From Trypanosoma brucei (taxonomy: Eukaryota): a stretch of 64,000 nt of DNA. Made by a program: the position numbers and the translations under genes. Of the stretch, positions 13,869 through 60,721 are shown one piece after another; position 1 is the stretch's first letter; each line of letters begins with the position of its first letter. The stretch lies in NCBI GenBank assembly GCA_000002445.1, contig CM000208.1, positions 3,840,001-3,904,000 of the forward strand. Direction: 5' to 3'. Below the pieces are notes generated by a model. It was not told where the DNA came from and did no database searches. It worked only from the letters and a program-made list of their open reading frames with translations.

Positions 13869-14088
13869 ATTACTTTCCTCAGGCATAAAATGTTTGGACG
13901 ACGCGTTTACGCCAGTGCGGCAGTTCCCCGCCGTATGTGGCCGGCACTTCACATTCAGAGCAGTAGCCAAGCACTGCGTATCCTTCCTTCACTCGCACCA
14001 CTTCACCCGACTATAACTCGGCATGTTGCACTTGTGTCCGCCCCGCTCACAAGCCTCTCCGCGGTCGGTTTGTGTGAATCCTCAACGG
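13869..14088 (+). repeat. Copy 2 of the 220-bp duplicated segment
   Basis: Identical to 9372..9591 over 220 bp. Confidence 0.85.
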
Positions 14089-14273
14089 CGCTGGAACCTT
14101 TACAAGGCGATGGCAGGGGATTCCTCGTCTCACATGCAGGCGGTTGGTACAATTGCGCACGCGCGTTGCTCACAAATGTCAGTACGGCTCCTATGAGGAC
14201 TATAATTTGGAAACTACACAATAAAGCGCAAGCCCCGTGGTCGCTACCGCGCCTTCAAACTACCCGAGAATAA
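13890..14273 (+). CDS. Small ORF (127 aa), paralogue B, sharing an identical 66-aa N-terminus with the 9393 ORF
   Basis: ATG at 13890 in the same frame as track ORF 13668..14273. The upstream part of the track ORF is translation of a GT/TA microsatellite and a polypyrimidine tract, not coding. The C-terminal 61 aa are unrelated to paralogue A. Confidence 0.35.
   Translation: MFGRRVYASAAVPRRMWPALHIQSSSQALRILPSLAPLHPTITRHVALVSAPLTSLSAVGLCESSTALEPLQGDGRGFLVSHAGGWYNCARALLTNVSTAPMRTIIWKLHNKAQAPWSLPRLQTTRE

Positions 14274-14954: not shown

Positions 14955-14990
<36 letters not shown>
14955..14990. repeat. (GT)n microsatellite
   Basis: 'gtgtgtgt...' run of about 36 nt. Confidence 0.95.
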
Positions 14991-22485: not shown

Positions 22486-24180
22486 ATGTGTACGTGCACC
22501 TGCTGTAACAAAGCAATACAATACTGCTGTTGTCGCACCTGTTCCCGCTGCTCAAAACCCCTCAACCGGCTACCACGAGGCCGTCATTGTAAAAGGTGTT
22601 GGCGTAGCGTGTGCTCAGCTTGCACGACTCGGTGCCGGTACGTCAATATGCTGGGGCCGCCTGAGGTAGTGTGTGATGGCTGCGCTGTCCCGCACAGCAT
22701 TGCATTCCTCAACGAGAGAAAGAGAGGCACCCCGTTGTGGGGGCTCTATGTCCTCTGGGGCGCAACGGATGCACCGGCGGTATGCGTTACGCCGTCATGT
22801 GGCACCTACGCTTATACGACCTTGTGCCGTGCCTGCGGCCTACCCACCGTTTCCTCCAGGGCCCATGTAACCCGTAGCGTCCACGACACTCGGAAACCTT
22901 CTCCCCAAGTGACGGACGAATTAAGGTTCCTCGATGTGAGAGAATACCATGATCGTGAGGCTGTCGTCAATGGGTACAGTAGCGCTGATGTAGAAGAGAC
23001 CTTTCGCTCATGCTTTCCCCGTGGGGAAGACGTTGCCGCTTTCCCCCATATTGGTAGCGCTTGTGAGGTACGGAACTTGTTGATGTCGCTGGTGGCTGCC
23101 GGCTTGGCTTACGAATACAACCGCGCGCCGAGTTTGACTCTCTCTCTCTCCGATTTTCCGTTTGCCTGTTTGCTGAAGTTGGTCCGCTATAACCGTCGCT
23201 ACACCGTTCTAGAAGCACCCGGGAAAGTTAAGTTCATCTCATTCCCGGGGACACATAATCCCGAAACAGTGGCCGTGAGTTTGCGTCTTTCTCACGTTAA
23301 GAGGCAACGGTGGTTTTTCCACAAGGAAGGCGAGGCAGGAGCCAGCGCCTGCGCATCCTCCACTGACGTAATTGGTGACTGTAATTCCCGACCAGGTCTC
23401 CACCAACAAGTTGGCGGGTTACCCCTCCACTACCGCGTCCACGCCGGCTTCATTCGCGAGGCAGAAAACCTGGTCCCACAGATGGAAGAATTTGTTGGGG
23501 AGGCCATTCACCACGGATACAGACTTGTGTTTTCGGGGCACTCCCTAGGCGGCGCAGTCGCCACCCTGGTGGCATTACAATTGCTGCAAACCCATCCCGA
23601 TCTCGCAAGGGACAGAGTCAGGTGCTTCACGTTTGGAGCCCCACTAGTTGGCGACCGTCAATTGACTGAGTTGGTGCAAAGGTTTGGTCTGACGCCTAAT
23701 TTTCACCACATTGTACATCAATTAGATATTGTTCCCCGACTATTATGCACGTATGAATGGTTGCGCGGCTGTGTAGACGAGCTGGCGGGAAGGGCCACCT
23801 TGCTTTTTAGCTCAGTGAAAAGTTGGGTGGGACGGTTCTCTAGCGGTGAGGTCGATGAAGGCGGACATAGCGAAGAGGCGGACACGATCGAGAGCCGAAT
23901 CAGGAATGGTGAAGGCGCAGTGAATGCGGAGAGCCCAGTTGAAGTAGAAGACGGTGATGAGCCGCATAGTTCAGCGAGTGGACCAAGGTATGCATGTTTT
24001 GGGAATTACCACTTCCTCAGCGACGACGGTACTAAGTTTTTCTCGACAGATAATCCCGAAGCGGCCTATCAAACGCTCAGAGGCAGTGGCAATGAAAAAG
24101 CGGCAGTGAGGAGTCACCGTGTCTTCGCGTACAACAGGGCCATATTCCTTCGTGTGTACACCAACGGACGATCCACCTAG
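22486..24180 (+). CDS. Class-3 (fungal-type) lipase with N-terminal FYVE-like zinc finger
   Basis: ATG start; 564 aa. The N-terminal Cys cluster 'CSRCSKPLNRLPRGRHCKRCWRSVCSAC...VVCDGC' fits the FYVE core (CxxC...R[RK]HHCRxCGxxxCxxC...RVCxxC). It lacks the WxxD motif and the second His. The serine nucleophile motif 'VFSGHSLGGAVATLVAL' (GHSLG) is typical of lipase_3. Confidence 0.8.
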   Translation: MCTCTCCNKAIQYCCCRTCSRCSKPLNRLPRGRHCKRCWRSVCSACTTRCRYVNMLGPPEVVCDGCAVPHSIAFLNERKRGTPLWGLYVLWGATDAPAVCVTPSCGTYAYTTLCRACGLPTVSSRAHVTRSVHDTRKPSPQVTDELRFLDVREYHDREAVVNGYSSADVEETFRSCFPRGEDVAAFPHIGSACEVRNLLMSLVAAGLAYEYNRAPSLTLSLSDFPFACLLKLVRYNRRYTVLEAPGKVKFISFPGTHNPETVAVSLRLSHVKRQRWFFHKEGEAGASACASSTDVIGDCNSRPGLHQQVGGLPLHYRVHAGFIREAENLVPQMEEFVGEAIHHGYRLVFSGHSLGGAVATLVALQLLQTHPDLARDRVRCFTFGAPLVGDRQLTELVQRFGLTPNFHHIVHQLDIVPRLLCTYEWLRGCVDELAGRATLLFSSVKSWVGRFSSGEVDEGGHSEEADTIESRIRNGEGAVNAESPVEVEDGDEPHSSASGPRYACFGNYHFLSDDGTKFFSTDNPEAAYQTLRGSGNEKAAVRSHRVFAYNRAIFLRVYTNGRST

Positions 24181-25889
24181 GCCAGACGGGAATGAGCCGC
24201 GTCAACGAGGAGCAAATACCTTTTCCCGCATCCTCACCCCCCCCCCTCCCTTTCACAATTCAGAGTGAAGAAGTTGTGGGGTGGAGCGGGTACAAGGCAT
24301 ATGTTTTCGTGAAAAGTGGAGTGTTTAATTATCTGTTAGGAAGAGTCTTGGAATTGTATGGATGTGTCAAGAACTGGTGGAAATACAATTGAACTCCAGG
24401 AGGTGGTTTTCAGTATTCCGAAACACCCAGGAGGTAGTTTGGGTGCTCCACAACACCTGCATCGAAGCTGCCGACAGTGTCATAGGAAGATTAATTGGGG
24501 CTTTAACTCAGCCAAATCGCATCACAACGCCGTGGCAAACAAGGATTACGACAAATGTGGTGTTCTTAACTTTCCCTGTTCTCATTACGGACGGAGCTCC
24601 CCGCGCGGGAGCCCACAATGGAACGTTCTCCCGGAAAAAAAAAGTTTACATGTGTCCTGCCATTTAAAAGCCCTCCAGCGCGCGCGCATTTACCTCTGCT
24701 CGCTCCTATCGCCGTGGTACTGCTGCTTTATTTTAACACGCAGGGCTTAACGTACCACGCAAACACATCTTCTTTTGGGCGCTGAACGCGACAGGAGGAG
24801 AGTCGTTGCGCACGTTAAGGGGGAGGGGAGAATGAGGGGTGACAAACCTAATAGGAACTATGTTAGGAAGCAACACACTCCCACACGCTCGCATGGGCCG
24901 CCACGTGTGTCCACATTTTGGGGAGTCCAAATTGGAAAATTCCTCTTTATTACTCCCAAATCTAAGGGATGTATTACATTCTGCTGGTGAAGAAAAAAGG
25001 AAAATAAAAGTTTGTCACGCACTCTCTTCCTCAAGAAGTCCGGGTGTTGATAAGAGGACAACCGGCACTTTGAAAACCTATGCAAAGGCGGACGCTGATT
25101 GGCGTTGGTTTCTTAGGAGATAATGGCACCTTTAGGTGAGTACGTGGAGACCGCTCAAATGGAGGGGAAAGCAATTGTAATAACTATAGTCGAATTGAAA
25201 TGTTTGCAAGCATTTGTTCCCTATAGGATTGTATCCCTCGGTTCAGGTTTGCAACGGCCGTACAGTTATCTGCTGTATTAGTTTAACGTCACAAGCTTCT
25301 CAGGTGACATTTAACCAGGGTCAGAAAGACAAACTGCAGTCGTGTCTTCACAGGGTTCGAAGTAGGCACATCATCTGTCGAATTAAGGTCCTGTTAACAT
25401 GCAAATCTGAGGTATCTCATTTTTTGTATAGGGCATCCGAGCACCACATTCATATGTGTACGTGAATGGCGCGGTCACTCGAACAGCTGACCATCCTTTC
25501 TTTGCTACCGTGGAAATTACCACGGATTGGCTTGTGTGTCTTCTCGCGAGGGGACTTGCAGTATTTCTGCTGGTCGCTTACAGCTACCACGCAAATAGCG
25601 AACTAAACGGTCGGATTGAGGGCGAAGAATTAAGCCCCGCGTCACGACTTTGTGTTTCCCGCCTCTCTCTACATGGGATCACGACACTGCGCGGGCCACC
25701 CTCATACAGCGAAAGCGACTACTGTCAGAGCCTCCTCACAGCACAATTCACCACCAGACGTCATTTTGTTGCGTGACTCATGAACCTTCGGCGTCCACCC
25801 CACTGCCCCTTTGACCTACTCGATTAATCGGGGAGGCGTCGGTCGCATTTGACAGCAACACACCTCAGCTCATACGGAAGGGGGGAGCA

Positions 25890-26474
25890 GTGACTACCAT
25901 ACGTGAAGATGGGGAAGGTGTTGGTAAATACCTTCCGATAAGTGGGACCGTGTTTGTCATTGGCCTTTCCGTTCCAGATGTGAGGGAAATCGCGAGGAAA
26001 CTTGAAGAACGCAACGATTTGCGTGTTATTGTTCTCTTCGGGGAATTTTCATTACTGTATGATCTGTTTACCACGGCCCTCAACAACACCGCAGGCGCCG
26101 CACGTCTTGTGTTTGCCACCAGCTTGCCACATTGGGGTGATACTGAAACCTCATCGAAGACTGCTCAACTGTTCCATGATGTTGAAAAAGACTCACGATT
26201 GTGGACACCCCTATCACTTCTGGCATTCGCAACCGGTCGATTGATGCGGGTAATACTTCTTCATGTAGAAGAAATGAGTCCAGACACGTTGGTAAATTTC
26301 TTCTATGCCGATTCTTCCATCATCTCTGATGACATGCGCTACGGCGTATTCGACGACACAAAATGCGACACCGCGGAGAAACTTCCGAAGAATGATTGTG
26401 CCTCAAACTATGGCGCAACGCAGGTATCCGTGTGGTCTATGGCCCGTGCCCTCAACGCCTCCATTCCTCCACTT
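25890..26474 (+). pseudogene. Truncated fragment of a receptor-type adenylate cyclase extracellular domain (no ATG; ends in a microsatellite)
   Basis: The track ORF 25890..26750 begins at GTG with no in-frame ATG near the 5' end. Its translation 'VFATSLPHWGDTETSS...TPLSLLAFATGRLMRV...MRYGVFDDTKC...NYGATQVSVWSMARALNASIPPL' parallels residues about 640–820 of the downstream cyclase ('VLFATNLPHWADEITAS...TPLSLLGFATAYFMRV...MRYGPFADDGC...NYGATQISVWSMARALNASIPPL'). Homology stops at 26474, where a (TA)n repeat follows. Confidence 0.7.
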
Positions 26475-26497
26475 GCAGATTGCTTTTCTTCCACTTG

Positions 26498-26521
26498 TAT
26501 ATATATATATATATGTATATA
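26498..26521. repeat. (TA)n microsatellite at the truncation point of the cyclase fragment
   Basis: 'tatatatatatatatatgtatatat'. Confidence 0.9.
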
Positions 26522-27125
26522 TCTTCATCCATTAAATTCTCTGCTACCGTTTAAGTTTGGGTTGAGGCGAAAATGCCTTGGAGGCGAGGTGTGGAAATCA
26601 TCCAGGCAAAGGGTTATACGGGGTTACCTTCCAGCGTGTCTGCCATCAGTGATCTGGGTAGTGAAGCGCGGGTTGCTGGTGTGTGTCCCCCGTTTCGTTA
26701 CTGAATACGTCATGTCAGTCTTTCGGGGTTACGCAGCGTGTAGGAGGTAGGGGAGGAAGGCAACCCATAATGCACATGCGAAGAAGGTGAAGTGGTGTGG
26801 GAACATGTGTGCCGGCAAATGTCGTCAAGGGGCAAAATATTACAGGCATCGCCCACGGTCGATGAGACGCAAACTGGACCTTCAGTGTATGGGGAAAGTG
26901 ATTACAAAGTGGCTCATGGGCATCGATAGCTTGCTCGGAAGCACGGGTCACGGATGGTGGCGTGTGTTCAGTTTGTCTCGAAACCGTGCGGTGCGGTGAG
27001 TGCGGACTTTACTGCACATGCCGTAAGTACTGATACTCTCCTCAGTTCGCGTTCCTCTCCCCTACCAAATCCCTTCCCCCTTTTGTCTCCACACGAACAT
27101 AGTTTACTCGGTTAAACAGAAGACC

Positions 27126-30100
27126 ATGTGCGTTGGCACCCGTGCTGCTGGTTTTGGCGGCAGTGCCGCAGACACATCCATCGTAGTCGGTCCAGCACGG
27201 AGGAGATCCTACTGCGGCCGCGCCCTTGTTGGAGCGGCGCCGTTGCCAGTCTTACTGCTTCTGTTGCTGTCGGTAATGTGTGTGAAAGCCGATATAGAGA
27301 TCGAGGTTTTCTCTCTATTGCACCATCAGAAGATAGAGAAAAGGTTCGTTGAAGCGGTTAACGCTGGCTTCAACGCTTCCATGACCTCGCGCCGGTGGAA
27401 GACGGCACCCAGTGTGCACATCAAAGTCATGCATCCATTTACGCCCAGCGCGTCACCTGTTAGTGGCTTCCAACAGGCTGTGGAACGCAACAGGGGCAAA
27501 CTCTTCGTTGTAGTTGGACCCCTGGGCGATTTCGGCACCGTCTCGTCGCTCATTACACTACTGGCAGAACAGGATGTGGTCGCCTTCGCGCCCCTAACTG
27601 GATCAAGTGGGGGTCGTGGGTGGAACCCTAATCTATACTTCACGCGTGCTTCTCCATCCGCAGAGCTACTGGCGCTCATCCGATACGCGTTGGGCCGGCT
27701 ACGTACAATTCGATTGGGTTTCATGTACCTTCACAATGTCTTCTTCGGGGTGGAGGAATATGACGTCGCCCAGCGCATATTGCGTCGCATGGGTTATGGA
27801 TTTTGCGGTGTTTTCACTTTAAGTAGCTCACTGACCGGGGTTGCGAGCACCAGACACTTCGATTCCGCTTGGAATACGTTTGTGGAAAGTCGTCCACAGG
27901 CTGTGATTGTGTTCGCTCCCCCCGTGGGGGATACGGCAAGGTTCATACGAAACCTGGTTGCTGACAGTCGCACGAGAAGTGCGTACGTGCTTGTTCCGTC
28001 GATGCTCCAGTTTGCCATTGAGAACATGTGGCGCGAGGCGCTGGCCTTTGCCGATAGCCCATTTGTGGATGGGCAAGTTGTGGTAACGGGAACCAACCCA
28101 CTTGCAAGGGACACACAGTATCACGCTATCCGACGGTTTCAGAGAGACGTGAGGTCGTATCTAAAATCGAACCCGGGTGTAACGGTCTTCAATGCCTCGA
28201 GCAATTTCGATCACGATGACATAGATGGGCAGTTGTTGGTTTATGGATGGATCACTGGTGAGGTGTTAGCTCAGGCGTTGAGCGTGCCCGAGCGTCTGAC
28301 TGACAGAAAAACATTTATGCAATCGTTGTATGACCAGCGGCGATACGTAATTGATGACCTTGTGATTGGAGACTATGGTGGTGAGTGCGCTGGTTGGGCA
28401 GCCGGTCAGGGAGCAATGTGCTGGTGCAACCAGGGGGGGAACACGGTGCACGTAAGGGTGATCAGTAGAGGCTACCGGCTGCTGGATGCACCCGATGGAA
28501 TTATGATGTTTGACTCTTCTCACTGCTACCCTAGCGAGGTCGAAATGCAGGCTCCGTTCAATGGTGTGTCTGTTCTGATACCGGATAGACCAACCGCATT
28601 GCATGCTGCTGTAGAAATGGAAGAGGGCGCCTCTCTACTCGAAGTGAGGGAGCACAACCAAGACAGCAGGCTGTTTTTCGACACCATCGTCTCGCCTTTC
28701 AGCGGAGCCGCCGAGGAGTTGCAGCGGGAGTGGTCCACGAAGATCACCACGGCTGTGCTGGGTGTTGTGGATGAAGCAATGCTAAAAACACCCGGTGTCG
28801 CGTTCATTGACCCGGTGCCGCTCGCGCCGCGACTGAACAAAATGGAAAGGAATGTTATTCATCTCTCGCCAACCCTGGAACAGCAATTTTATGTGTGCAC
28901 GTCGTATCTTTCGAGGAACGACAAAAAACGTCTGCATATCGTTATCCGCAGTATCGATGCGGCCGCAATCGAGGATGTTCTGAAGAAAACCCTTGCGACG
29001 TTCAGTGTGGAACCGCAGTCAGTGGTAGTGCTGGACGGCAACGCCACGGTAGAGGGCCACCTGCCTGACAGTGGGGATGTTTACGTCATCGGCCTCACGG
29101 CAGCTGATCCCGTAGTGATTGCGGCCCATCTCAATAGTCATGATAGTGCTCGTGTGTTCGTTCCATTTTTCGATGTAGTACTGCTTCATGAAGAATTTTT
29201 TAACGCGTTCGAAGGCGTCTCGAGTGCTGATCGCGTCCTCTTCGCCACTAACCTACCACATTGGGCGGACGAGATCACAGCGTCAGAGGTTGTACAGAAA
29301 TTCTACACAGCGGAAAGAAATGCATCACGGCGAACGCCGCTCTCGCTTCTAGGATTTGCCACAGCGTATTTCATGCGGGTTATTATTTCCCCGATGAAGG
29401 CTATGAACGCAACTGCGCTTGTTGACTCCATTTTTGCTCAATCTGTAGTCAACGTCGGTGAGATGCGCTACGGCCCCTTCGCCGATGACGGTTGTTTTCT
29501 GAAAGGAGTGCCGCGTTTGACAGGTTGTGCCGTTAACTATGGCGCAACGCAGATATCCGTGTGGTCTATGGCCCGTGCCCTCAACGCCTCCATTCCTCCA
29601 CTTACAAATCCCATGACACCGTCAATGAGGTACTTGGACCCGGACGCCGGTAAACTTTCACGGGGACAACTTGCTGGCGTAATCGCCAGTTCCATTCTCG
29701 TCGCACTGCTTCTTGTGGCTCTGACTACGGTGCTGCTGCATGTCTCGCGACACAACACCCGTGATAACAACAGCGCGCCAAAGGAGCCCACAGAGCCTGT
29801 GACAATTGTTTTCACAGATATTGAAAGCAGCACGGCACAGTGGGCTGCCCACCCCGATGTCATGGCTGATGCTGTCGCCGCACACCACAAGTTGATCCGC
29901 GCGCTGATCTCCCAGTACGAGTGTTACGAGGTGAAGACCGTTGGGGACTCGTTCATGATCGCGAGCCGAAGTGCGTTTATGGCGGTGCAACTTGTGCGGG
30001 ATCTGCAGAGGGCGTTCCTTCGCCACGACTGGGGCGCGTCCGTGTTTGACGAGTATTATCGCAGTCTTGAGCAGGACCGTGCGTCAGAAAGTGAGGGATA

Positions 30101-30836
30101 CGTGCCGCCAACCGCACGCCTGGACCCCGACGTGTACCGAAAGTTGTGGAATGGCCTCCGAGTGCGAGTTGGTGTGCACACCGGATTGTGTGACATTCGC
30201 CACGATGAGGTGACAAAGGGTTACGACTACTATGGTCATACGTCGAACATGGCTGCCCGCACAGAGAGCGCTGCGAATGGTGGACAGATATTGCTGACAC
30301 GTGCAACATACCTTTCGCTAAGCACAGCAGAGCGTGAGCAACTTGACGTCACTGCGCTGGGCGCCGTCCCACTGCGTGGCGTTCCCGATCCGGTCGAAAT
30401 GTACCAAGTTGATGCTGTGGTCGGTCGGTCCTTCGCTGCACTGCGCCTCGACGGGGAAGTCGATCTGGTCGCTGAAAGTGAATTAGCTGTTTGCCACGCC
30501 AGTGACACCAGTTCAGCTACTACTGCCCTGGATGAATCATCGCAGATCATCACCAGCTGCTTTGAGACGCTGCTTGGCGCATTCACTCCTTCCAAGCGGC
30601 GAGACCTGCTGTTGCCTATCTGCGAGCGTTGGCGTGTGACGTTGCCACAGAAAACCAAGTCCGTGTGGGATGATAACGACTGTCAGGAGGTTATGCGGCG
30701 TATAGCAACAAAAGTGGGCCGTGTGGTGGACTTCCATGTTGTGGATGACGGCGGTTGCTCGACGGAAACAGTAAGCAGTGCATCGGTGATTATTATATCT
30801 AATCATGTGGAGGATTTCACCGCGCATCAAACTTAG
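27126..30836 (+). CDS. Receptor-type adenylate cyclase (GRESAG4/ESAG4-like): signal peptide, large extracellular VFT-like region, single TM, class III cyclase catalytic domain
   Basis: ATG start; 1236 aa. The N-terminal signal 'AAPLPVLLLLLLSVMCVKA', a TM helix 'AGVIASSILVALLLVALTTVLL', and a catalytic domain 'VTIVFTDIESSTAQWA...YEVKTVGDSFMIAS...VRVGVHTGLCD...YYGHTSNMAARTESAANGGQILLT' carrying class III cyclase signatures. This architecture is characteristic of trypanosomatid receptor adenylate cyclases. Confidence 0.9.
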   Translation: MCVGTRAAGFGGSAADTSIVVGPARRRSYCGRALVGAAPLPVLLLLLLSVMCVKADIEIEVFSLLHHQKIEKRFVEAVNAGFNASMTSRRWKTAPSVHIKVMHPFTPSASPVSGFQQAVERNRGKLFVVVGPLGDFGTVSSLITLLAEQDVVAFAPLTGSSGGRGWNPNLYFTRASPSAELLALIRYALGRLRTIRLGFMYLHNVFFGVEEYDVAQRILRRMGYGFCGVFTLSSSLTGVASTRHFDSAWNTFVESRPQAVIVFAPPVGDTARFIRNLVADSRTRSAYVLVPSMLQFAIENMWREALAFADSPFVDGQVVVTGTNPLARDTQYHAIRRFQRDVRSYLKSNPGVTVFNASSNFDHDDIDGQLLVYGWITGEVLAQALSVPERLTDRKTFMQSLYDQRRYVIDDLVIGDYGGECAGWAAGQGAMCWCNQGGNTVHVRVISRGYRLLDAPDGIMMFDSSHCYPSEVEMQAPFNGVSVLIPDRPTALHAAVEMEEGASLLEVREHNQDSRLFFDTIVSPFSGAAEELQREWSTKITTAVLGVVDEAMLKTPGVAFIDPVPLAPRLNKMERNVIHLSPTLEQQFYVCTSYLSRNDKKRLHIVIRSIDAAAIEDVLKKTLATFSVEPQSVVVLDGNATVEGHLPDSGDVYVIGLTAADPVVIAAHLNSHDSARVFVPFFDVVLLHEEFFNAFEGVSSADRVLFATNLPHWADEITASEVVQKFYTAERNASRRTPLSLLGFATAYFMRVIISPMKAMNATALVDSIFAQSVVNVGEMRYGPFADDGCFLKGVPRLTGCAVNYGATQISVWSMARALNASIPPLTNPMTPSMRYLDPDAGKLSRGQLAGVIASSILVALLLVALTTVLLHVSRHNTRDNNSAPKEPTEPVTIVFTDIESSTAQWAAHPDVMADAVAAHHKLIRALISQYECYEVKTVGDSFMIASRSAFMAVQLVRDLQRAFLRHDWGASVFDEYYRSLEQDRASESEGYVPPTARLDPDVYRKLWNGLRVRVGVHTGLCDIRHDEVTKGYDYYGHTSNMAARTESAANGGQILLTRATYLSLSTAEREQLDVTALGAVPLRGVPDPVEMYQVDAVVGRSFAALRLDGEVDLVAESELAVCHASDTSSATTALDESSQIITSCFETLLGAFTPSKRRDLLLPICERWRVTLPQKTKSVWDDNDCQEVMRRIATKVGRVVDFHVVDDGGCSTETVSSASVIIISNHVEDFTAHQT

Positions 30837-30918
30837 CTGGTATGCTCTTCTGTGGGTACATGTGTGGCTTTCACTTCCCGTGTGGCAGTTCTTTTCTGAA
30901 CTCCGTTTTGCTGTCCTC

Positions 30919-30935
30919 TTTTTTTTTTTTTTTTT
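30919..30935. repeat. poly(T) homopolymer
   Basis: 17 consecutive T. Confidence 0.9.
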
Positions 30936-32072
30936 GAGCATCTTTTTCTTTTAAATAGCGTGCGAATGCAATAAGCCGCGTCTATATACCACCCCTCCAT
31001 TTTGTTTGTCCCCTTCACGGTGCTTTCCGCGGTTAAGCATATAGTGTTTCTATCAGTCACCCTCTTTGTCTCTTAAGTATTTGTTTTTGTTTTTACTTCG
31101 CTCATACATTGGACCATTCATGGTGAAGCATTCTCAATTTATGTCGCCTTCACCATATTATCGATTCTTTTATGCTGTTCTGACAAATGTGTTCAGTTAA
31201 GCCGCAATCGGGTGTCTTGTTTGGATTACTTTATGTTACGCTACCTACGTGCATTTCTTCCTCCTGTTGCATGCGAGGCCATATGACGTTTATTGTGTTC
31301 CTTATTTTATTTTTATTTGTTTGCTGTTCTGCTGCTAAGCTGGTGTTATACGGCGCCCACGGTCCTTAGTTTGTAACTGCACGCGATTGTGCAGTGGATT
31401 CCGTGCTTTTGATTCAACTGCGGGCTGTCCCCTTGCCACTCCGGTGCGGCCGTGCCATGGTTGTGTATTTGATGTGTGGTTAGCTTGATGTAAAGCCCCT
31501 TCTCTGAACCTGGATTTTTCAATGTCGTTGCGCTCCCACTATTTTTATTGCTTAGCGTTTTATGTGTGTCTTTATCAACAACCACCTTGCAGCAAGTGTA
31601 GAATTGTTTAAATTACTTTGAGGGGGCCGGTATCGCCGACGTTGTAAGTCGGTACCCTGACATTATGCTGAACTCGCGGAGCTTTCAGCATATGTAGGCA
31701 GCATGGCTTCGGTACGTTGGTGAAGTAGCGTGCCTGAGTTGACACATCATCTGCTGATGTTAAGAAGCTTCCCACACTTGTTGAATCCGCCATGCTCGCC
31801 ACCAATCACGCGGCATCCACGGACCACTTGTTTGTGTGGAACGGGGCTTTCGGTTGAATACGTATCACAACGCAACTCGGGGTTTCACCAATCGCAACGC
31901 GGCCACCAAGAGCGTTGTAAGAAACCAAAGCAACAAGAGAACGACTCCCACTCTTGATATCCGAGAGGCGGCGCTGAGCCTTCGCGGGTCCTCCACAAGA
32001 GCGAAGGCTAAACCGTCACCCCTTGCGATGGGCTTCTGACAAGCATAGCGCAGTGTTTGTGAGTTCAATCGT

Positions 32073-32074
<2 letters not shown>

Positions 32075-32106
<32 letters not shown>
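32075..32106. repeat. (GT)n microsatellite
   Basis: 'gtgtgt...' run of about 32 nt. Confidence 0.95.
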
Positions 32107-32107
<1 letters not shown>

Positions 32108-35100
32108 GGCCGCTGAAGTTGTCAGACCCCATTTTTGCACTCTGTTCAGCCAAGGACAATGGGGGGACCGGACCTTCCCAAGCCGCTTGCTTGGAGAACG
32201 GAGTTTGTGGTGATGTAGAGGCCTTACTTCACATCACCAAGTGGAGCGGCAGCGGCAGCAGGGGAAAAAAAAAAAGAGACTTCCGTGAATGCGCCGGGGT
32301 CGTTTATCGCGAGCGAGGGGGTGCAAGTTTCCCGCGACCCAACGGAGGAGTTGATACACGGGAGTCCCTTGCCTCCGTCGGCCCTCTCGGGACCGCAGTT
32401 TCCGCCTGGAGTGCACCTAAATACGTTTCATCCTCCACGATTTGAGTGATTGTAATATGTTCCCCGAGGCGTCGGTAAGCTGGCAACGAATGATGGACAA
32501 GTGTGTGTCTTGCTGTGTTGTGAAGAACCAACACTCCAAAGGGCAAGCGCCAACAGGAACAAAACTTCTGCGGCCACCTCACGCCTTACCCGCGGCGGTC
32601 TTGAAGATTAGAATTCACTCCCCAGGCGGTCTGTGTGTGTGTAGTGGGGGGGGGGTATTTTTTCATTTTCTATTTTTTTTAGGTGTATAGGGTCCTTGCG
32701 TTTGCTCGTTTCTAAGATTCCTACGAAGCTGTGCGCTTCTTACGCGCTAGTGGCCGTGATTCCACGTTGTTGCGCGGTGGGATCCCTTTGCAGTACTGTC
32801 CGCAGGGCACCAGCGTGTAGGTTCATGCGCTTACTACGGAATTGGCCCAGTTGTGCGGGCTGAACGCTCCCAAAACACAAACTATGTTGCCAAGGCCTAT
32901 GCTCGCCAACTAGCGTCTACCTTAGTTCCCCCATTACCTCGATTACAACTGGCGGCCCCTGGGGGTGATGCTGTATTTTCTCCGGGATGTTCAAGCTCTA
33001 GGATCCCTGACGTACATTTGACTCCCCAAGTGAGCGGAGCATAGCCGAATACAAAGTCCCCCTCAGTATTTCCGTCCAGTTCCATAATTACCACTTCGCC
33101 TTTTTATTCTGACAGCCGTCCCTTGCTACGAGTAGCTGAATCACCTCTAATACCCCATAGACCTCCGTGAGCGCAGGGTTTTTGCCTTGAGGCCATTTGC
33201 CCTCGTGCAACCCCAATGTTTTTGTTTTGTTTTTGCTGGCTGGGTGGTGACCACCTTAGGCGGCGGGGGGGGGGGCGCGGAGGCGCACAGAAATTTTCTA
33301 AAATTAAAATTTTTTAACCTGGTTAAACAACCTTGAAACACATAAATGCGCAGCGCGCGTAAGATATTTCACTTTCCTAGCGACTCCAACTTTCGATGCC
33401 GATTCGTCGAGCTTTCCCGTGCGGAGCGGCGGCTATCCCTCGTGGGATGCACAAGAATGTTTTCACGTCCGGTGGCCGCGAGCCTTGTGGTCACGCACCG
33501 CCCCTCTCCCCCACTACCGGAGAACCGGTTATGGCCGCCAGAGCCACTTTTACTCGGGCTTCCCAGTTGGGCCGACCAACGAGGTGTTGCTGAGCTCTGG
33601 CCCTGTTTGGTCCCCCTTTTCCACGCGCGGTTCATTTTGCACCTCCTCCAACAATTTCATCCGCATCGGCAGAGCACGTAGGCGGCTATCAAGCACTGCA
33701 CTAGATTTGCGACTGCCGCGATCCTGCTCATTTGGGTTGGGCTTGGGGTGGGTGGGATGCCGACGCCGCCGAAGGCATGCTCACAGATGCCTTCTGGTGT
33801 CGGCCAAAAGTGCCTTCACCGTTAAAAACAAACAGCAGAAGGAAGGGAAAGGGGGAAAAAGCAACCAGCGGCAGCAAGTGATTGGCTGAAAGCCGCACCC
33901 TACTTCGTCCGAGTCCCGCGCGGGGCTGGCTAATTTTAATAATTCGGGGAGGGGCGATGGCGGCAACAGCACCCCCGGGCGTGCCCAAGGGCCCTTTGGC
34001 CGTCCACGTCGCCATTTGCAGGGTCTCTTCGAACAACAAATTGTTTGATGGCCTAACCTTTCGGAAGCACAGCTTTTATCACCCAATCACCGTTTCCACA
34101 ACCCTGGTGAGGGCAAATGCGACCTGACACCGCACATCTGTTATGGTTCTCTTTATAGCGACCTGGCGAACCCTAGCTTCGCCGCAACGGGCATTTCCAG
34201 AGAAAATTAGGCCTCGGCACCGCAATGGCGCACGCCGGACGATGTGGGCTAGAGCAGGGGCGGTGACTTTGTCCATCGCCCCAACGGTTTACGCAACGTT
34301 TTCACAACCTCGTTTACCCACCACCCCTTAAAGCCCTATCGGCATTGCTTCCCACACCAAAAAAAAGGAGGCGACCACGCTTGATGTGCAGCCGGCGCCC
34401 TCTCCGACAGCGGGCCCTGACCCCAGTCCCGCACCGTATTCCTCGTTTTTTTAGTTTCCAATCTCAGCTTCGCGTTGCACACTGGAACTTCAGAGTCCGC
34501 AGCCAGCGGTATCGGGTACGGCCCCTGCCCCACATTTCCGCCGTCCCCGCGGGACCATTCCGGCAGCGGCGATCGACGCATGCCCCTGAAGACCCCGATG
34601 TGTCCTCATTTCGTGGCGCAACATGTGGAGATGGCACCGTCAAGAAAGAAGCGAGCGGAGCCAACGCACATCCCAGCCGCTTGCTTTCCGGCTGCGCTGC
34701 GCATCTCTGCACTCAAGACGAGCCTTCCAAGGGGGTGACGTGCCGTTTCTGTACCACCATCGGCCTCGGGTTGTTCGGCGGGCACGGGTCGGCAAGGGGC
34801 CATCCCCGGGTTCACATGGAGCCGACCTTGCGCTTGTGGTCACTGCATGGAGGGGGATTTTATGGGTTGTGGTCGCCCCCTTTGGATGCCCCTGCCACCT
34901 GGAGAACGTCACTGAACACGGTGACCGCTGGTCCGGGCGGCGTCAGCCTGACGGAATAGCGGTCCTTTTCTCTGTGGCGGCGGCGGTGGCGCCCGTGATC
35001 CAAGCCTGGGCATGCCTTTGTTTGGTGGCGTGCGCGGAGTCACTTAGGTGAGCGGTGGACGGTTGCTCCCTTTTTTTCGCACTATCGCGGCCGGTCTAAA

Positions 35101-36191
35101 TGGTAGGGACCGCCCGTAGAGTATATCACGCGAATGTAGTGTGTTTGCAATCCTTTGAGCATGTCAGCGATGCGAGAGGTGCACCGTTACTCCGTATGGA
35201 GAAAAAATGTAGTGATACGTAGCGAAGTCACCACCGAGTGACACGCTAGGAAACGATCATGGATTCGTCGGAGGGAGTGTCCCGGTCGTTGACGGTGTTG
35301 TTTTCGATGCGCTGCGACGTTTTCAAGGCTAATTCGTTGCGAGCGGTTAATATCCCATGTACCCGGTAACCAATGCTGGTGTGCTGTCAAGAAGGTGGCA
35401 ATACCCATCCATCCGGTCACAGCAGGTTTGTTTTACTGTTCCCCCATCCAATTCGTTGTTGATCGGTTTGAATACCGCCTCGTCGCAACGCGCACGCGGG
35501 TTCAGACGTCAATACGCCACCTGAAAGCTAACCCCCTAACGCCTCGGTGGTACTGGTGCATCTCTAACCCGCAACGTTGCAAGTGACGCTGGAGTCCTGT
35601 GCCGCAGAGCTGAACCAATGGGTTGCGCTGCGGATGCACTCTACGTCCGTATGTCGTTGCTAGTGCAAGTATTTGCGTAGCATTCGTCAACTTGCCTATG
35701 GCGCGACTACTTATATCCATCAATGCTGAAGTGATGTATATTCGCGGTTACCGGCGGGTTGTATCTACTGCAAGCGGTTTTGAAGGTTTGTACCGCGATC
35801 CTTCTATCTTCAGTACCCCAATGTGGGTTATATTTCTCATTTCTTTGTTTATTCTGTTTTGAATGCAACAAGTTATTGCAAAACAAATGTGTATATTGTA
35901 TTTTTGTCATTTCGTTTTTCTTAATCCTTGCTTCGGGGGTACCAGTGTCTTATCGCACGTTTCTCTCTATGTAACGGGCGCACGTAACACTTATGAGCGG
36001 CATTTAACAGCGGGAAAATTCGGCTCCCGTGGTATTGCAAACCTCAAGAAACTGGCTGCTAACATACCGGTATCTGCACACTTTATCCTCTTCGTCTGCT
36101 TGAAATCTCTCTGCATACTGCATTTACATTGGTAGGCAGCACTTTTATCATACCTGCAAGAACACTCCTGATTTATAACTTAGTTTTTTAA

Positions 36192-37253
36192 ATGCTTCAA
36201 CCAGAGTGTCAACCGGGGTTTTGCTTCGATTCGGTTGCGGTGGATGGGAAGACGAACGTTGTAGTTAACGTCTGTGGGCATGAATCAGTCGGTAAGGCAC
36301 TGACAAAAAGCATGGACGTCGCACCCACAAGCTATTTAGATGAATATGGAGTAGATAATCTTATTGTTCCAATATCTGTTAGGCCTCCATTGAAATGCGA
36401 AGAGGGTAGGTGTGATTTTGTTATCGACGTCGTTGTCCATCCGTCACTGACTGAGCGCTGTGTGAAGGGACACCGACTTTTTGAACATTATATAACCAGG
36501 CTAACAACCCTCGCTATTGAATGGATCTTGCAGGAGTGTGGAGTAAGGCTAAATGCACGGGACTGTAAGCTTATTAAAGGGACGAAATACTATAGTTGCA
36601 CAAAACGGGACGTCAAGCAAATGATTTCAGAGTTGATGAGATCAATGGATACACAGTTGAAGAACGAGTCAACAAAGACAGACTCAGAATCGGATTTGCT
36701 AGGGGACAAACTTAAGGTAAACACCAATAGAAAGGATGCGGAGAATAGCCGACCACCCCTTGTTACAGAAATGCCTGCAAGTAGTGGAATTCAGAAAGGT
36801 TTCCTTAGCAAGGCCAGGCTATATGGAGACAAGGGAAGTGGTGAGTGTAACGAATCTCAATCCGATCCACTTCTTCATCTCCCTGAGAACCTTAGAAAGA
36901 AATGTCAAATTGTTGATCTTCGGCAAAGTAGTTGCACGCCACAAGAACCGGGAAAGGCCGGTCTAATCTCCAAATGTGATGAAGTGCTCAAAAATACTCC
37001 TACTGTCCCTACAAAGCCACTCCACGAATGGAAGGTTATTTCTTTGAGTTGCGATGAAACGGCGGTTGTTGTACGACTACATCCACCGCCGGGCGTAACA
37101 TCAATGAAGTCGGTAAACCTGGAGGTAACGCCGGGCACTATAGAAATTGACGAAACTGTTGTTAACCTACCGAAATCCATACGCGTGGGTGAAGTATCGG
37201 CGAAATTTTTGAAATCTTCGAGCAGCTTAATTCTGACGTGTCCGATAGCTTAG
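36192..37253 (+). CDS. PIH1-domain protein (Kintoun/PIH1D-like dynein pre-assembly or R2TP co-chaperone family) with C-terminal CS-like domain
   Basis: ATG start; 353 aa. The N-terminus 'LQPECQPGFCFDSVAVDGKTNVVVNVCGHESVGKA' matches the PIH1 motif (P.PGFC.K.....K.FINICHS..I..P). The C-terminus 'WKVISLSCDETAVVVRLHPPPGVTSMKSVNLEVTPGTIEIDE...AKFLKSSSSLILTCPIA' resembles the PIH1 C-terminal CS/alpha-crystallin-like domain. Confidence 0.65.
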   Translation: MLQPECQPGFCFDSVAVDGKTNVVVNVCGHESVGKALTKSMDVAPTSYLDEYGVDNLIVPISVRPPLKCEEGRCDFVIDVVVHPSLTERCVKGHRLFEHYITRLTTLAIEWILQECGVRLNARDCKLIKGTKYYSCTKRDVKQMISELMRSMDTQLKNESTKTDSESDLLGDKLKVNTNRKDAENSRPPLVTEMPASSGIQKGFLSKARLYGDKGSGECNESQSDPLLHLPENLRKKCQIVDLRQSSCTPQEPGKAGLISKCDEVLKNTPTVPTKPLHEWKVISLSCDETAVVVRLHPPPGVTSMKSVNLEVTPGTIEIDETVVNLPKSIRVGEVSAKFLKSSSSLILTCPIA

Positions 37254-40685: not shown

Positions 40686-40941
40686 GCGGTGCGTATTTTT
40701 TTCCCCCAGAAAGGTAAGCAATCATAGCTCTATTTGTTTGTTGCATTGTTTATTTGTTTGTTTTCCCTTCACCACAACTCATGTTGTTTCGTCATGGTCG
40801 TCCCCACTCGTGTGTTTTGTGTTCGTTTGTGTTACTTTGCCTACGCGCAGTACATAAGGAAGGTCAGTAAGCATAATAATACAGTGACAAGCGTCAAGGT
40901 TTTGGGTGGGGTGATAGGGGAGTCTGTGTGGCTCTCATAGA

Positions 40942-41481
40942 ATGTCAGATGGACTTCCGTGGCCCTCATCGACGGTGAGTGCTCTCCAAAGAATCCCTTT
41001 TCGGGAGCGCCTGAAGAACTTTTACTTCTTGATTTTTAGCGCTAAAACGAACCGATGTATCCTTGCCACATCTATTGTGCTGTTGCTAATCAGCGTGGTG
41101 AGGAGTAGCTGCGTAACGACCCTTTGGTACCATACAGCTGAAGCAATCGTAACGTTGCTTTTCGTCTGCGAAGTCACTATTCGTCTCATGGTGATGCGAG
41201 GTAACTTTTGGGATTCTTCGTACAATGTAGCGGAGGCGCTGTCTTGTGTGGTTTGTATTACTATTTTTTTCGTTCTCCACTACACACGTCAGATGAGCTC
41301 TTCAGTGGAACATCAGTTTCTTATCGCACTGCGCTATTTGGGCCAGGTGCTGCGATTGGCGGGGTTAGTTGCGGTGGACACTGTACTCTTGGGAAGTGGT
41401 GAGGCTACCCTTCATCTTTCTTTTGTCGGCACCCGGCCATGTGTGGTCAGTGGGAGAGAAAACCTGTGTGATGTACTGTGA
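40942..41481 (+). CDS. Small 4-TM protein resembling an isolated voltage-sensor / ion_trans S1–S4 segment (hypothetical)
   Basis: ATG start; 179 aa. 'LLFVCEVTIRLMVMRGNFWDSSYNVAEALSCVVCI' parallels the S2–S3 pattern of voltage-gated cation channels ('FTxEmvLKiiA.G......WNxxDfvVV'). 'LIALRYLGQVLRLAGL' is a degenerate S4-like helix. Confidence 0.4.
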   Translation: MSDGLPWPSSTVSALQRIPFRERLKNFYFLIFSAKTNRCILATSIVLLLISVVRSSCVTTLWYHTAEAIVTLLFVCEVTIRLMVMRGNFWDSSYNVAEALSCVVCITIFFVLHYTRQMSSSVEHQFLIALRYLGQVLRLAGLVAVDTVLLGSGEATLHLSFVGTRPCVVSGRENLCDVL

Positions 41482-41899
41482 AAATTTTTTATTTTCCTCC
41501 GTGGGCTGTCTGTGCTCTCCAGCGATTGGCACCTGGTGCGACGCGGGTGGTCACTCTTTTCTTTCCGTCTCTCTTTTACTTCTTGCTGAGTAGTGAGCCG
41601 GGGGGTGGGCCGCAACAGATATGCGGCGGCATCCAACACGCGTCTCAGGGAACCTCATGCCATGTGCACATGTGGACACATAAACACGTAAGTGTCAATT
41701 AGTGCCCATTTTGGAAGTGCGCAGTCACCACGTCTCGCGTACGCTTTTTTCTTTTTTTTTTACCTTCCTTTTGTACATACCCTCCTTTTTGACTCCTATG
41801 TCTTTGTCATTTTTTATGCAGATAGTAGGCAGGCTGGAGAAACGCAGGTGTCCGCATACCTGATTGGACGTTAGCGGGGCTTTGATCACCTTCTGACTA

Positions 41900-42247
41900 A
41901 TGTCCGAGGACACGTTTTTTCGCCGTGCTGCCAATTGGATGTACGGTGACTCTTCGTACCTACAGAGGACGCCGCCACCGGAGCTTGGTGATAGGCACAT
42001 CAACGAACTCTTGAGTCGCCATCCTTTTCACCCGTTTGACCCGGAGATGAGCTCCGAGCACCCTTGTAGCGAAAATAACTCGTTATTCTACTCGTGTATG
42101 ACAAGTGACGAGGTCGAGGGCTACGAACTGCACATGAAGCACGTCACCTGCTATTTTCCGTATAAAGTAAATCTGATGAAATGCCTCTCGAGAGAGCGCC
42201 GCCTGGCACGCGCGGGGGCGTCTTCGGATATAGACAAACAGAAATGA
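41900..42247 (+). CDS. Hypothetical small protein (115 aa)
   Basis: ATG start, + strand, non-repetitive composition. No domain recognised. Coding status uncertain. Confidence 0.3.
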   Translation: MSEDTFFRRAANWMYGDSSYLQRTPPPELGDRHINELLSRHPFHPFDPEMSSEHPCSENNSLFYSCMTSDEVEGYELHMKHVTCYFPYKVNLMKCLSRERRLARAGASSDIDKQK

Positions 42248-42573
42248 CTACTCACAATGAACATTAGGCCCAGCCACACCCCCTTCCGGCTGCCGGTTAA
42301 GCACGGGGCTGAGTTTTCCATTGGGACGCCAGTATTTATTTATTATCACAATTATTTTTACCGCGCACGATCCTTAGGTTTGGTAGACATACGTGGAACA
42401 CATACAAGCACATGGATGTATATTCGTCTGTGCGCATAGTCAAACCGATAAGCTCATGTTTTCTGCAAACTTACACAGGACTCTCCCCCGACCCCCTTAA
42501 ATACAGAGTCGTCACCTACGTGCTCGTCTCCCACTCTTGCCATCTATAGTGTTACAAAGCTCCCACACACAAG

Positions 42574-60697: not shown

Positions 60698-60721
60698 ACA
60701 CGCCGTGCGTGCAGACTTGCA

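What the first reader, a model, noticed from the sequence alone, without database searches (positions are those of the whole stretch)
33200..35100. GC-rich, non-repetitive, ORF-free island inside a 5.3-kb gene-less gap
Between the adenylate cyclase (ends 30836) and the PIH1 gene (starts 36192) there is no ORF longer than about 200 codons, which is unusually long for a trypanosome intergenic region. Within it, about 33.2–35.1 kb is unique, GC-rich sequence. It has many overlapping 80–200-codon ORFs in all frames on both strands, as expected of GC-rich non-coding DNA. It has none of the homopolymer or microsatellite content that characterises the true intergenic spacers elsewhere in the window, and those spacers flank it (31.0–32.7 kb and 35.7–36.2 kb are AT-rich, with a (GT)n run and a poly-G/poly-C tract at about 33.27 kb). 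This compositional signature suggests a decayed gene (a pseudogene with multiple frameshifts) or a long non-coding transcript; a degenerate retroelement is less likely. I could not recognise any protein family in any frame.
Basis: partly seen in the sequence, partly recalled or inferred. Interest (0 to 1): 0.5.

Follow-up and report, generated by a model that had tools for sequence, protein, structure and literature searches.

The report
Non-coding spacer at a transcription-unit boundary
The GC-rich, gene-less stretch is non-coding DNA inside a Trypanosoma brucei-specific insertion, lying in a gap where published mapping already places the end of one polycistronic transcription unit and the start of the next, so it is neither a decayed gene nor a new kind of element.

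Summary
Window 33.35-35.15 kb is the most GC-rich part of the 64 kb (58.7% against a mean of 50.7%). It is unique within the window and sits in a 5,355-bp gap with no ORF over 204 codons.

The window is T. b. brucei TREU927 chromosome 10 (v4 3,840,001-3,904,000). The island is not strictly ORF-free in the reference annotation. ORF 34387-34959 is the hypothetical protein Tb10.61.0270, which is probably spurious:
- shuffled sequence gives an ORF as long 19% of the time;
- the ORF is frameshifted in T. b. gambiense and carries a 108-bp deletion in T. b. equiperdum;
- annotators of different genomes chose different frames.

I found no homology, no Pfam domain in any frame, no coding-type codon usage, no Rfam or tRNA hit and no RNA-structure signal. 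Sequence divergence is above that of coding sequence.

T. rangeli has lipase and PIH1 335 bp apart. About 12 kb, including the adenylate cyclase and this gap, is therefore a lineage-specific insertion, and no ancestral gene decayed here.

Kolev et al. 2010 (Table S14) end one Pol II unit at the cyclase and start an "Internal" unit at PIH1. The best reading is a head-to-tail unit boundary and transcription start region. Whether the island itself is the promoter core is inferred, not shown.

The parts
24181..36191 (+). An insertion of about 12 kb specific to the T. brucei lineage, between lipase (22486-24180) and PIH1. It contains ORF Tb10.229.90, an ESAG4 pseudogene fragment, the GRESAG4 adenylate cyclase and the 5.3-kb gap.
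   Evidence: T. rangeli locus L010 is collinear with the window on both sides, with lipase ending at 9666 and PIH1 starting at 10001. tblastx finds no similarity between the insertion and L008, L010, L011 or L012.
27126..30836 (+). Receptor-type adenylate cyclase GRESAG4. By accession order this should be Tb10.61.0280, the last annotated ORF of the upstream Pol II unit.
   Evidence: Pfam domains. Exact identity to EAN78957/XP_828069. Kolev Table S14.
30837..36191 (.). Gene-less gap. It is the head-to-tail boundary between two same-strand polycistronic units, with termination of the upstream unit and an internal Pol II start for the downstream one.
   Evidence: Chromosome coordinates are Tb927_10_v4 3,870,837-3,876,191 (offset taken).
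30914..30935 (+). The only uninterrupted polypyrimidine tract of 14 nt or more in the gap (includes T17). It is followed by AG at 30937, 100 nt after the cyclase stop codon.
32075..32106 (+). (GT)16 microsatellite. Its length varies among Trypanozoon genomes.
32646..32690 (+). G10 run followed by a T-rich tract and AG. This is a G/T-rich element on the coding strand. The G-run length varies between strains.
33265..33275 (+). G11 run at the left edge of the island. It is one of only two G runs of 8 or more in the 64 kb.
33350..35150 (.). Core of the GC-rich island (GC 0.55-0.65). It is non-coding and unique within the window.
33346..33681 (+). 111-codon ORF, annotated in T. b. gambiense as 'hypothetical protein, unlikely'. 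It overlaps a 156-codon ORF (33419-33889) in another frame.
33734..33752 (+). Canonical G-quadruplex motif, one of four in the window.
34387..34959 (+). 191-codon ORF, the annotated hypothetical protein Tb10.61.0270 (XP_828070, Q387R4). It is probably a chance ORF.
   Evidence: Exact match. 18.6% of shuffles give an ATG ORF at least as long. The ORF is frameshifted with stops in T. b. gambiense and has a 108-bp deletion in T. b. equiperdum. Gambiense annotators used another frame, 34590-35048.
34411..34518 (.). Segment deleted in T. b. equiperdum (35 + 73 = 108 bp in the four-way alignment).
34600..34850 (.). Point where GC skew changes sign: C>G to the left and G>C to the right, coinciding with the GC maximum. 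The maximum contrast is at 34725, the third strongest such switch in the window.
36192..37253 (+). PIH1/Nop17. This should be Tb10.61.0260, the first annotated ORF of the downstream 'Internal' Pol II unit.

Best explanation
The 5.3-kb gap is the non-coding boundary between two polycistronic transcription units that run in the same direction on T. brucei chromosome 10. RNA polymerase II finishes the upstream unit after the GRESAG4 adenylate cyclase and starts a new unit whose first gene is PIH1.

The gap and the cyclase genes belong to an insertion of about 12 kb, specific to this lineage, between two genes that were neighbours in the ancestor (lipase and PIH1).

The GC-rich island (about 33.35-35.15 kb) is unconstrained, non-coding DNA within this boundary. 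Its ORFs, including the annotated Tb10.61.0270, are the chance ORFs expected in GC-rich sequence.

As an inference, the island is the core of the broad, bidirectional start region. G/T-rich runs lie just upstream on the coding strand. Strand composition flips at about 34.7 kb, from G-rich on the minus strand to the left to G-rich on the plus strand to the right. Sense transcripts would reach the first splice-acceptor region upstream of PIH1.

Shown: the gap is non-coding, it lies in an insertion, and the unit boundary falls within it. Inferred: the island itself is where initiation occurs.
For: Identity of the window:
- ORF 34387-34959, the cyclase and the kinase are 100% identical to TREU927 proteins with the consecutive accessions EAN78957, EAN78958 and EAN78960.
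- The coordinate offset to Tb927_10_v4 is 3,840,000.

Published boundary:
- Kolev et al. 2010 Table S14 lists unit Tb10.61.1790 to Tb10.61.0280 (+, Divergent) followed by unit Tb10.61.0260 to Tb10.61.0060 (+, Internal). Tb10.61.0270 is assigned to neither unit.
- The paper reports enrichment of 5'-triphosphate RNA ends, sense and antisense, at internal sites and summarises them in Table S14. This locus is not singled out in the text I read.

Non-coding character:
- Best codon-usage log-odds score in the island is 0.04. The in-frame gene mean is 0.163, with a 5th percentile of 0.058.
- 19-23% of dinucleotide shuffles give ORFs at least as long.
- An exhaustive HMMER search of the eight longest open frames (1,108 aa) against 1.84 billion proteins returned only three ORFs of the same locus in Trypanozoon.
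- Six-frame Pfam scans of 30837-35700 found nothing significant.
- There are no Rfam or tRNA hits. RNA folding z-scores average about 0.
- Three genome annotations call ORFs in different frames.
- ORF191 is broken in T. b. gambiense and carries a deletion in T. b. equiperdum.
- Substitutions against T. b. equiperdum are 1.8-2.75% in the gap, 0.3-1.0% in coding sequence, and 0.6-0.7% in the two intergenic regions longer than 1.5 kb.

Insertion:
- In T. rangeli, lipase and PIH1 are adjacent, 335 bp apart.

Boundary-like context in relatives:
- PIH1 is the first plus-strand gene after minus-strand genes in T. vivax and T. grayi, and follows a minus-strand RHS gene in T. congolense.

Composition:
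- The only two G runs of 8 or more in the window, and a (GT)16, lie at 32.0-33.3 kb on the coding strand. Wedel et al. 2017 report 10-mers made of long G or T stretches enriched on the coding strand of start regions.
- The GC-skew switch is at 34725.
- Non-homologous, ORF-poor blocks of raised GC lie 1-3 kb upstream of PIH1 in T. vivax, T. congolense, T. theileri and T. melophagium.
Against: - Table S14 fixes the boundary only to the interval between the cyclase and PIH1. I could not see read or ChIP profiles, so placing initiation on the island is an inference.
- The island itself is not GT-rich. Its G+T fraction is 0.45-0.51 over 33.5-34.5 kb.
- The skew switch is only the third strongest in the window.
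- CpG observed/expected is 0.96, the same as the whole window.
- A milder block of raised GC also sits in another long T. brucei gap, at L008 7750-9500, whose status as a start site is unknown. Such blocks may simply be what long spacers look like between T-rich processing signals.
- T. rangeli has only 335 bp at this junction, so a start site here is not universal.
- Tb10.61.0270 is absent from Kolev's list of ORFs without a detectable transcript. A processed RNA from the island may therefore exist and have a role of its own.
- The gene-number-to-ORF assignment for Tb10.61.0280 and Tb10.61.0260 rests on consecutive accessions and one literature mention. It is not a direct look-up.
Confidence: 0.62

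Rival explanations
1. The island is a decayed protein-coding gene: a pseudogene with frameshifts, perhaps carried in together with the GRESAG4 copy.
For: The GC content resembles or exceeds that of coding sequence. The island lies next to a gene family known for pseudogene copies, and an ESAG4 pseudogene fragment sits at 25830-26750. Only the eight longest open frames, about 29% of the six-frame space, went through the exhaustive sequence search.
Against: - There is no homology beyond the same locus.
- No Pfam hit at E<=1 in any of the six frames over 32700-35700.
- No frame reaches a gene-like codon score.
- No gene occupies this position in T. rangeli.
- Nothing similar lies upstream of PIH1 in T. 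congolense, T. vivax, T. theileri, T. grayi or T. melophagium.
- Divergence is at the neutral-looking level of the flanks.
Confidence: 0.07
2. Tb10.61.0270 (34387-34959) is a genuine, young, Trypanozoon-specific protein-coding gene.
For: It is annotated in TREU927 and T. equiperdum OVI with identical sequence. It is not on Kolev's list of ORFs lacking a transcript. The T. b. equiperdum deletion is a multiple of three.
Against: - The ORF length is matched or exceeded in 18.6% of shuffles.
- The codon score is not coding-like.
- T. b. gambiense has a +1 and a -1 indel with stops between them, and its annotators chose a different frame.
- At least three of the six substitutions against T. b. equiperdum change the amino acid.
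- It has no homologues.
Confidence: 0.05
3. The island is the body of a functional long non-coding RNA, processed from the start of the PIH1 unit or from read-through of the upstream unit.
For: Everything in a trypanosome unit is transcribed. Candidate splice-acceptor contexts exist (T-rich tract plus AG at about 32690, and 30937). Tb10.61.0270 appears to have had a detectable transcript in procyclic forms, inferred from its absence from Table S2.
Against: - There is no excess RNA structure: mean z is about 0 and the minimum is -2.6 in 58 tests.
- There is no Rfam family.
- Divergence among subspecies is the fastest in the compared region, and a 108-bp deletion is tolerated.
- No Kolev 'novel transcript' has an end in 30.9-36.0 kb.
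- I could not check the lncRNA catalogues because their supplements are not held.
Confidence: 0.12
4. The island is a degenerate mobile element, or a flank that moved together with the GRESAG4 gene, and has no role of its own.
For: It lies inside a lineage-specific insertion next to a dispersed gene family. T. congolense has an RHS gene at the equivalent junction.
Against: - No reverse transcriptase, endonuclease, RHS or other domain appears in any frame.
- No repeat is shared with the rest of the window, including the flank of the ESAG4 pseudogene.
- Each ORF from the island is recorded on only 1-2 contigs in the protein collection.
- This reading is compatible with, rather than exclusive of, the boundary explanation.
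Confidence: 0.1

Closest known systems
Internal (non-strand-switch, head-to-tail) RNA polymerase II transcription start regions of Trypanosoma brucei (Siegel et al. 2009; Kolev et al. 2010; Wedel et al. 2017)
   Same: The gap lies between two same-strand units, and this very interval is listed as the start of an 'Internal' unit. G runs and a GT repeat sit on the coding strand. No conserved promoter sequence is evident. The interval is long and gene-poor.
   Different: The island itself is GC-rich rather than GT-rich. Chromatin marks and exact start positions were not available to me. The boundary sits in a lineage-specific insertion, and T. rangeli has only 335 bp at this junction.
Divergent strand-switch regions of trypanosomatids
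   Same: In T. vivax and T. grayi, PIH1 is the first gene after minus-strand genes. The T. brucei island shows the same kind of skew reversal, C-rich on the left and G-rich on the right. Kolev et al. report bidirectional initiation at all putative sites.
   Different: In T. brucei no minus-strand gene lies to the left. The T. vivax partner block is on another chromosome in T. brucei.
Synteny-break regions enriched in lineage-specific gene families (known from comparative trypanosomatid genomics; stated from my own knowledge)
   Same: A GRESAG4 copy and a pseudogene are inserted exactly where several species show rearrangements.
   Different: The T. brucei flanks remain collinear with T. rangeli, so this is an insertion rather than a break.
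'Hypothetical protein, unlikely' ORFs of the T. brucei annotation
   Same: These are short orphan ORFs in non-coding DNA. One island ORF carries exactly this label in T. b. gambiense.
   Different: Tb10.61.0270 is labelled plain 'hypothetical protein' in TREU927.

Membership tests
T. brucei internal Pol II transcription start region / head-to-tail unit boundary | Lies between the last gene of one unit and the first gene of the next unit on the same strand | tested here: met
   Kolev et al. 2010 Table S14 gives Tb10.61.1790 to 0280 (+) and then Tb10.61.0260 to 0060 (+, Internal). The ORF-to-ID assignment comes from consecutive accessions and coordinates.
T. brucei internal Pol II transcription start region / head-to-tail unit boundary | Enrichment of 5'-triphosphate RNA ends, sense and antisense | not testable with these tools
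   The paper reports this for internal sites in general. Per-base profiles for this locus are not available here.
T. brucei internal Pol II transcription start region / head-to-tail unit boundary | H2A.Z/H2B.V, H4K10ac and BDF3 enrichment, with H3.V/H4.V/base J at the preceding termination site | not testable with these tools
   No ChIP data are accessible. The supplements I searched contained no entry for these genes.
T. brucei internal Pol II transcription start region / head-to-tail unit boundary | G/T-rich sequence and long G or T runs on the coding strand (Wedel et al. 2017) | tested here: inconclusive
   G10, G11 and (GT)16 lie at 32.0-33.3 kb, and the G+T fraction is 0.56-0.59 at 34.75-35.3 kb. 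Over 33.5-34.5 kb of the island it is only 0.45-0.51.
T. brucei internal Pol II transcription start region / head-to-tail unit boundary | Sequence-specific promoter elements (Cordon-Obras et al. 2022) | not tested
   The paper is not held, so I had no motif to search with.
Pseudogene (decayed protein-coding gene) | Recognisable homology to a functional gene, possibly across frameshifts | tested here: not met
   Searches were all negative. The six-frame word-index search was technically invalid, because it missed ORFs from the same locus.
Pseudogene (decayed protein-coding gene) | An intact orthologue at the syntenic position in a relative | tested here: not met
   T. rangeli has 335 bp between lipase and PIH1. 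Five other species show no similarity.
Non-LTR retroelement relic (ingi/RIME/DIRE) or RHS pseudogene | Remnants of reverse transcriptase, endonuclease or RHS domains | tested here: not met
   Six-frame Pfam scans.
Non-LTR retroelement relic (ingi/RIME/DIRE) or RHS pseudogene | Multiple copies in the genome, with an A-rich tail and target-site duplication | not testable with these tools
   No T. brucei genome search is available. There is no repeat within the 64 kb.
Structured or catalogued non-coding RNA | A match to a known RNA family, or folding energy below that of shuffled sequence | tested here: not met
   Rfam search at E<=1 gave 0 hits. No tRNAs. Folding z-scores average about 0.
CpG-island-type promoter | CpG observed/expected raised relative to surrounding DNA | tested here: not met
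   0.96 in the island against 0.95 in the window. Only GC content is raised.

The most novel reading that the evidence does not exclude
The GC-rich island could be a promoter defined by base composition rather than by sequence. On this reading, a block of high GC whose strand skew reverses in the middle is what recruits or permits bidirectional Pol II initiation. Such blocks would arise anew, without homology, upstream of the first gene of a unit. That would explain why non-homologous blocks of raised GC lie 1-3 kb upstream of PIH1 in T. vivax, T. congolense and the T. theileri group, and why a working start region exists inside a young T. brucei insertion.
Probability: 0.2. Interest if true: 0.55.

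Novelty: already known. Interest (0 to 1): 0.22.

Why it matters
The finding has modest practical value in three ways.
- It shows that a reference-genome 'hypothetical protein' (Tb10.61.0270) is very likely a chance ORF.
- It shows that an unusually long gene-less interval in a trypanosome is better read as a boundary between transcription units than as a lost gene.
- The locus is a compact example of an internal Pol II start region that sits inside a dated, lineage-specific insertion, flanked by genes that are adjacent in T. rangeli. That makes it a convenient place to test what sequence or composition is enough to create a trypanosome promoter.

The mapping itself is already published, so little here would surprise a specialist.

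Tried and rejected
- Six-frame word-index search. I joined all six frames of 33000-35400 with X and submitted them to the search for homologous proteins. It returned nothing, but it also missed the 93-100% identical ORFs of the same locus that are in the collection. I discard that negative.
- Pseudogene. Rejected on homology, codon usage and synteny.
- Retroelement or RHS relic. Rejected for lack of any domain remnant, although copy number in the genome could not be checked.
- Structured RNA. Rejected.
- CpG island. Rejected.
- Simple synteny breakpoint with T. vivax. This was my own first idea. I revised it once T. rangeli showed collinearity on both sides. T. brucei has an insertion, and it is other lineages that rearranged at this junction.
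- Literature supplements. Looking for chromatin, termination or lncRNA data on these genes found nothing or the files were not held. Cordon-Obras 2022 and Siegel 2009 are not held.
- Conserved element upstream of PIH1. Cross-species comparison of the upstream regions found no shared sequence among T. congolense, T. vivax and T. theileri.
Full report
**Where the window comes from.** The PIH1 protein at 36192-37253 is 97% identical to T. b. equiperdum PIH1, and the window is collinear with that genome at 98.4-98.9% identity. Three window ORFs are exact matches to T. b. brucei TREU927 proteins with consecutive accessions. These are the adenylate cyclase (EAN78957), the 191-codon ORF 34387-34959 (EAN78958, 'hypothetical protein Tb10.61.0270') and the MAP kinase (EAN78960). 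Coordinates printed in the supplements of Kolev et al. 2010 (Tb10.61.0290 at 3,865,830-3,866,750; Tb10.61.0100 at 3,900,605-3,901,624) match window ORFs at 25830-26750 and 60605-61624. The window is therefore Tb927_10_v4:3,840,001-3,904,000.

**Checking the observation.** The gap between the cyclase and PIH1 is 5,355 bp, and its longest ORF is 204 codons. No other gap between ORFs of 200 codons or more in the window exceeds 2.5 kb. The island at 33200-35100 is 58.7% GC, against a window mean of 50.7% (sd 4.7% for 500-bp windows). It contains the GC maximum of the whole 64 kb, 64.6% at 34501. It shares no repeat with the rest of the window and has almost no simple-sequence content. The description needs small corrections. 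31.7-32.6 kb is not AT-rich. The tract at 33265 is G11, with no poly-C. A second run, G10, lies at 32646. The reference annotation does place a hypothetical ORF in the island.

**Is anything encoded?** A codon-usage log-odds score trained on 21 window genes averages 0.163 in frame, with a 5th percentile of 0.058. The best 100-codon window in any of the six frames in the island scores 0.04. The longest ATG ORF (191 codons) is equalled or exceeded in 18.6% of dinucleotide shuffles, and the longest stop-to-stop frame (230 codons) in 22.6%.

An exhaustive HMMER search of the eight longest open frames (1,108 aa) against 1.84 billion representative proteins found three proteins only. All are ORFs of this same locus in Trypanozoon genomes, which also serves as a positive control for the search. 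They fall in different frames. TREU927, T. equiperdum OVI and T. b. equiperdum call the 34387-34959 frame. T. b. gambiense instead calls 34590-35048 ('T. brucei spp.-specific protein') and 33346-33678 ('hypothetical protein, unlikely').

A four-genome alignment shows the TREU927 ORF interrupted in T. b. gambiense by a +1 and a -1 indel with stops between them. In T. b. equiperdum it is shortened by 108 bp. Six-frame Pfam scans of 30837-35700 gave no family at E<=0.1. There is no Rfam hit at E<=1, no tRNA and no excess RNA structure.

Substitutions between TREU927 and T. b. equiperdum run at 1.8-2.75% across the gap. Coding sequence shows 0.3-1.0%, and the two intergenic regions longer than 1.5 kb show 0.6-0.7%. 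The island is therefore non-coding and unconstrained. One earlier search must be disregarded, because it missed proteins that are demonstrably in its database.

**Synteny.** Downstream of PIH1 the gene order (kinase, cytochrome-b5-reductase-like, eIF4E and onward) is conserved in T. congolense, T. vivax, T. theileri, T. melophagium, T. grayi and T. rangeli. Upstream the species differ:
- T. vivax and T. grayi have minus-strand genes.
- T. congolense has a minus-strand RHS gene followed by 7 kb of ORF-poor DNA.
- The T. theileri group has at least 7-10 kb without convincing genes.
- T. rangeli is collinear with the T. brucei window on both sides: PDZ protein, cation-efflux protein, TBP, a 230-aa protein, lipase, then PIH1 only 335 bp later.

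Window 24181-36191 is therefore an insertion of about 12 kb in the T. brucei lineage. It carries a GRESAG4 cyclase, an ESAG4 pseudogene fragment and the gap. None of it resembles anything in the other loci. This removes the basis for 'a gene decayed in place'. As an inference, the lipase|PIH1 junction has been rearranged independently at least three times. That pattern is expected if it has long been a unit boundary.

**What the gap is.** Table S14 of Kolev et al. 2010 ('Putative Pol II transcription units') lists two consecutive units on chromosome 10. The first runs from Tb10.61.1790 to Tb10.61.0280 (+, Divergent). The second runs from Tb10.61.0260 to Tb10.61.0060 (+, Internal). The authors derived these sites from libraries enriched in 5'-triphosphate ends, together with published histone-mark maps. 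They report sense and antisense initiation at all such sites.

By accession order, Tb10.61.0280 is the cyclase and Tb10.61.0260 is PIH1. A preprint on PIH homologues mentions Tb927.10.16020, and a paper on trypanosome kinases mentions Tb927.10.16030, which fits the numbering. Tb10.61.0270, which lies inside the island, is assigned to neither unit. The gap is thus a published head-to-tail boundary with an internal start site.

**Where in the gap? (inference)** The only two G runs of 8 or more in the 64 kb, and a (GT)16, lie on the coding strand at 32.0-33.3 kb. Wedel et al. [quoted passage not shown] Within the island, GC skew reverses at about 34.7 kb, C-rich to the left and G-rich to the right, exactly at the GC maximum. 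It is the third strongest such switch in the window, so it is suggestive and no more.

Non-homologous, ORF-poor blocks of raised GC lie 1-3 kb upstream of PIH1 in T. vivax, T. congolense, T. theileri and T. melophagium. A similar skew reversal sits at the block in T. vivax and T. congolense.

Several points weigh against reading much into this. The island is not GT-rich. CpG observed/expected is unremarkable. A milder GC block also occurs in another long T. brucei gap of unknown status.

**Verdict.** The preferred interpretation, a pseudogene, is not supported. The locus is an already catalogued boundary between transcription units, with an internal start region, lying in a lineage-specific insertion. 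The annotated ORF is probably spurious. The only open point of interest is whether the GC-rich, skew-reversing block is itself what makes the region a promoter.

Noticed in passing
window 24181-36191; L010 9666-10001: Lipase and PIH1 are 335 bp apart in T. rangeli. T. brucei has about 12 kb inserted between them, containing an ORF without a detectable transcript (Tb10.229.90, 24358-24750), an ESAG4 pseudogene fragment (25830-26750) and a full GRESAG4 cyclase.
   Followed up: yes
L003 6553-7860 (T. vivax); L008/L009 10001-11287 (T. brucei subspecies): The gene block that diverges from PIH1 in T. vivax (NDUFAF7-like methyltransferase, a ~650-aa protein, SET-domain proteins) lies on a different chromosome in T. 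brucei. There it follows a Kelch-repeat gene on the same strand after a 3.7-kb gene-poor gap with a mild GC rise and a (GT)8 run.
   Followed up: partly
window 30837-36191 compared with 40686-42573 and 43330-45026: The gap diverges two to four times faster between TREU927 and T. b. equiperdum (1.8-2.75%) than the two other long intergenic regions (0.6-0.7%). The G runs, the (GT)n run and the T17 tract all vary in length among Trypanozoon genomes.
   Followed up: partly
window 36192-37253: The 353-codon PIH1 ORF aligns from residue 1 with the T. congolense orthologue. T. b. equiperdum annotates a 313-aa version, and the exact 353-aa sequence is not in the protein collection. The annotated start codon probably differs between genome annotations.
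   Followed up: no
window 13668-14273: This 201-codon ORF has a weak but repeated translated match (40-47% identity over about 45-115 aa) to a small gene downstream of eIF4E in five other trypanosome species. In T. rangeli the match instead lies at the syntenic position, upstream of the PDZ-protein gene. This suggests a paralogue pair flanking the region.
   Followed up: no
window 14275 and 14955-14990: The strongest C-to-G skew switch in the window, and a second (GT)18 run, lie just after ORF 13668-14273 in another gene-poor stretch (12.4-15.5 kb).
   Followed up: no
tool behaviour: the search for homologous proteins, given a 4,823-aa query of six frames joined by X, returned no hit even though 93-100% identical proteins are in its collection. 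Negatives from such concatenated queries should not be trusted.
   Followed up: yes
L005 8102-8935 (T. theileri); L012 8527-9088 (T. melophagium): T. theileri has a gene call of 261 aa in the GC-rich block upstream of PIH1. It overlaps ORFs in all frames on both strands and has no Pfam hit, so it looks like a chance ORF, as Tb10.61.0270 does. T. melophagium has a 173-aa call without a Pfam hit at the equivalent block, which I did not examine further.
   Followed up: partly
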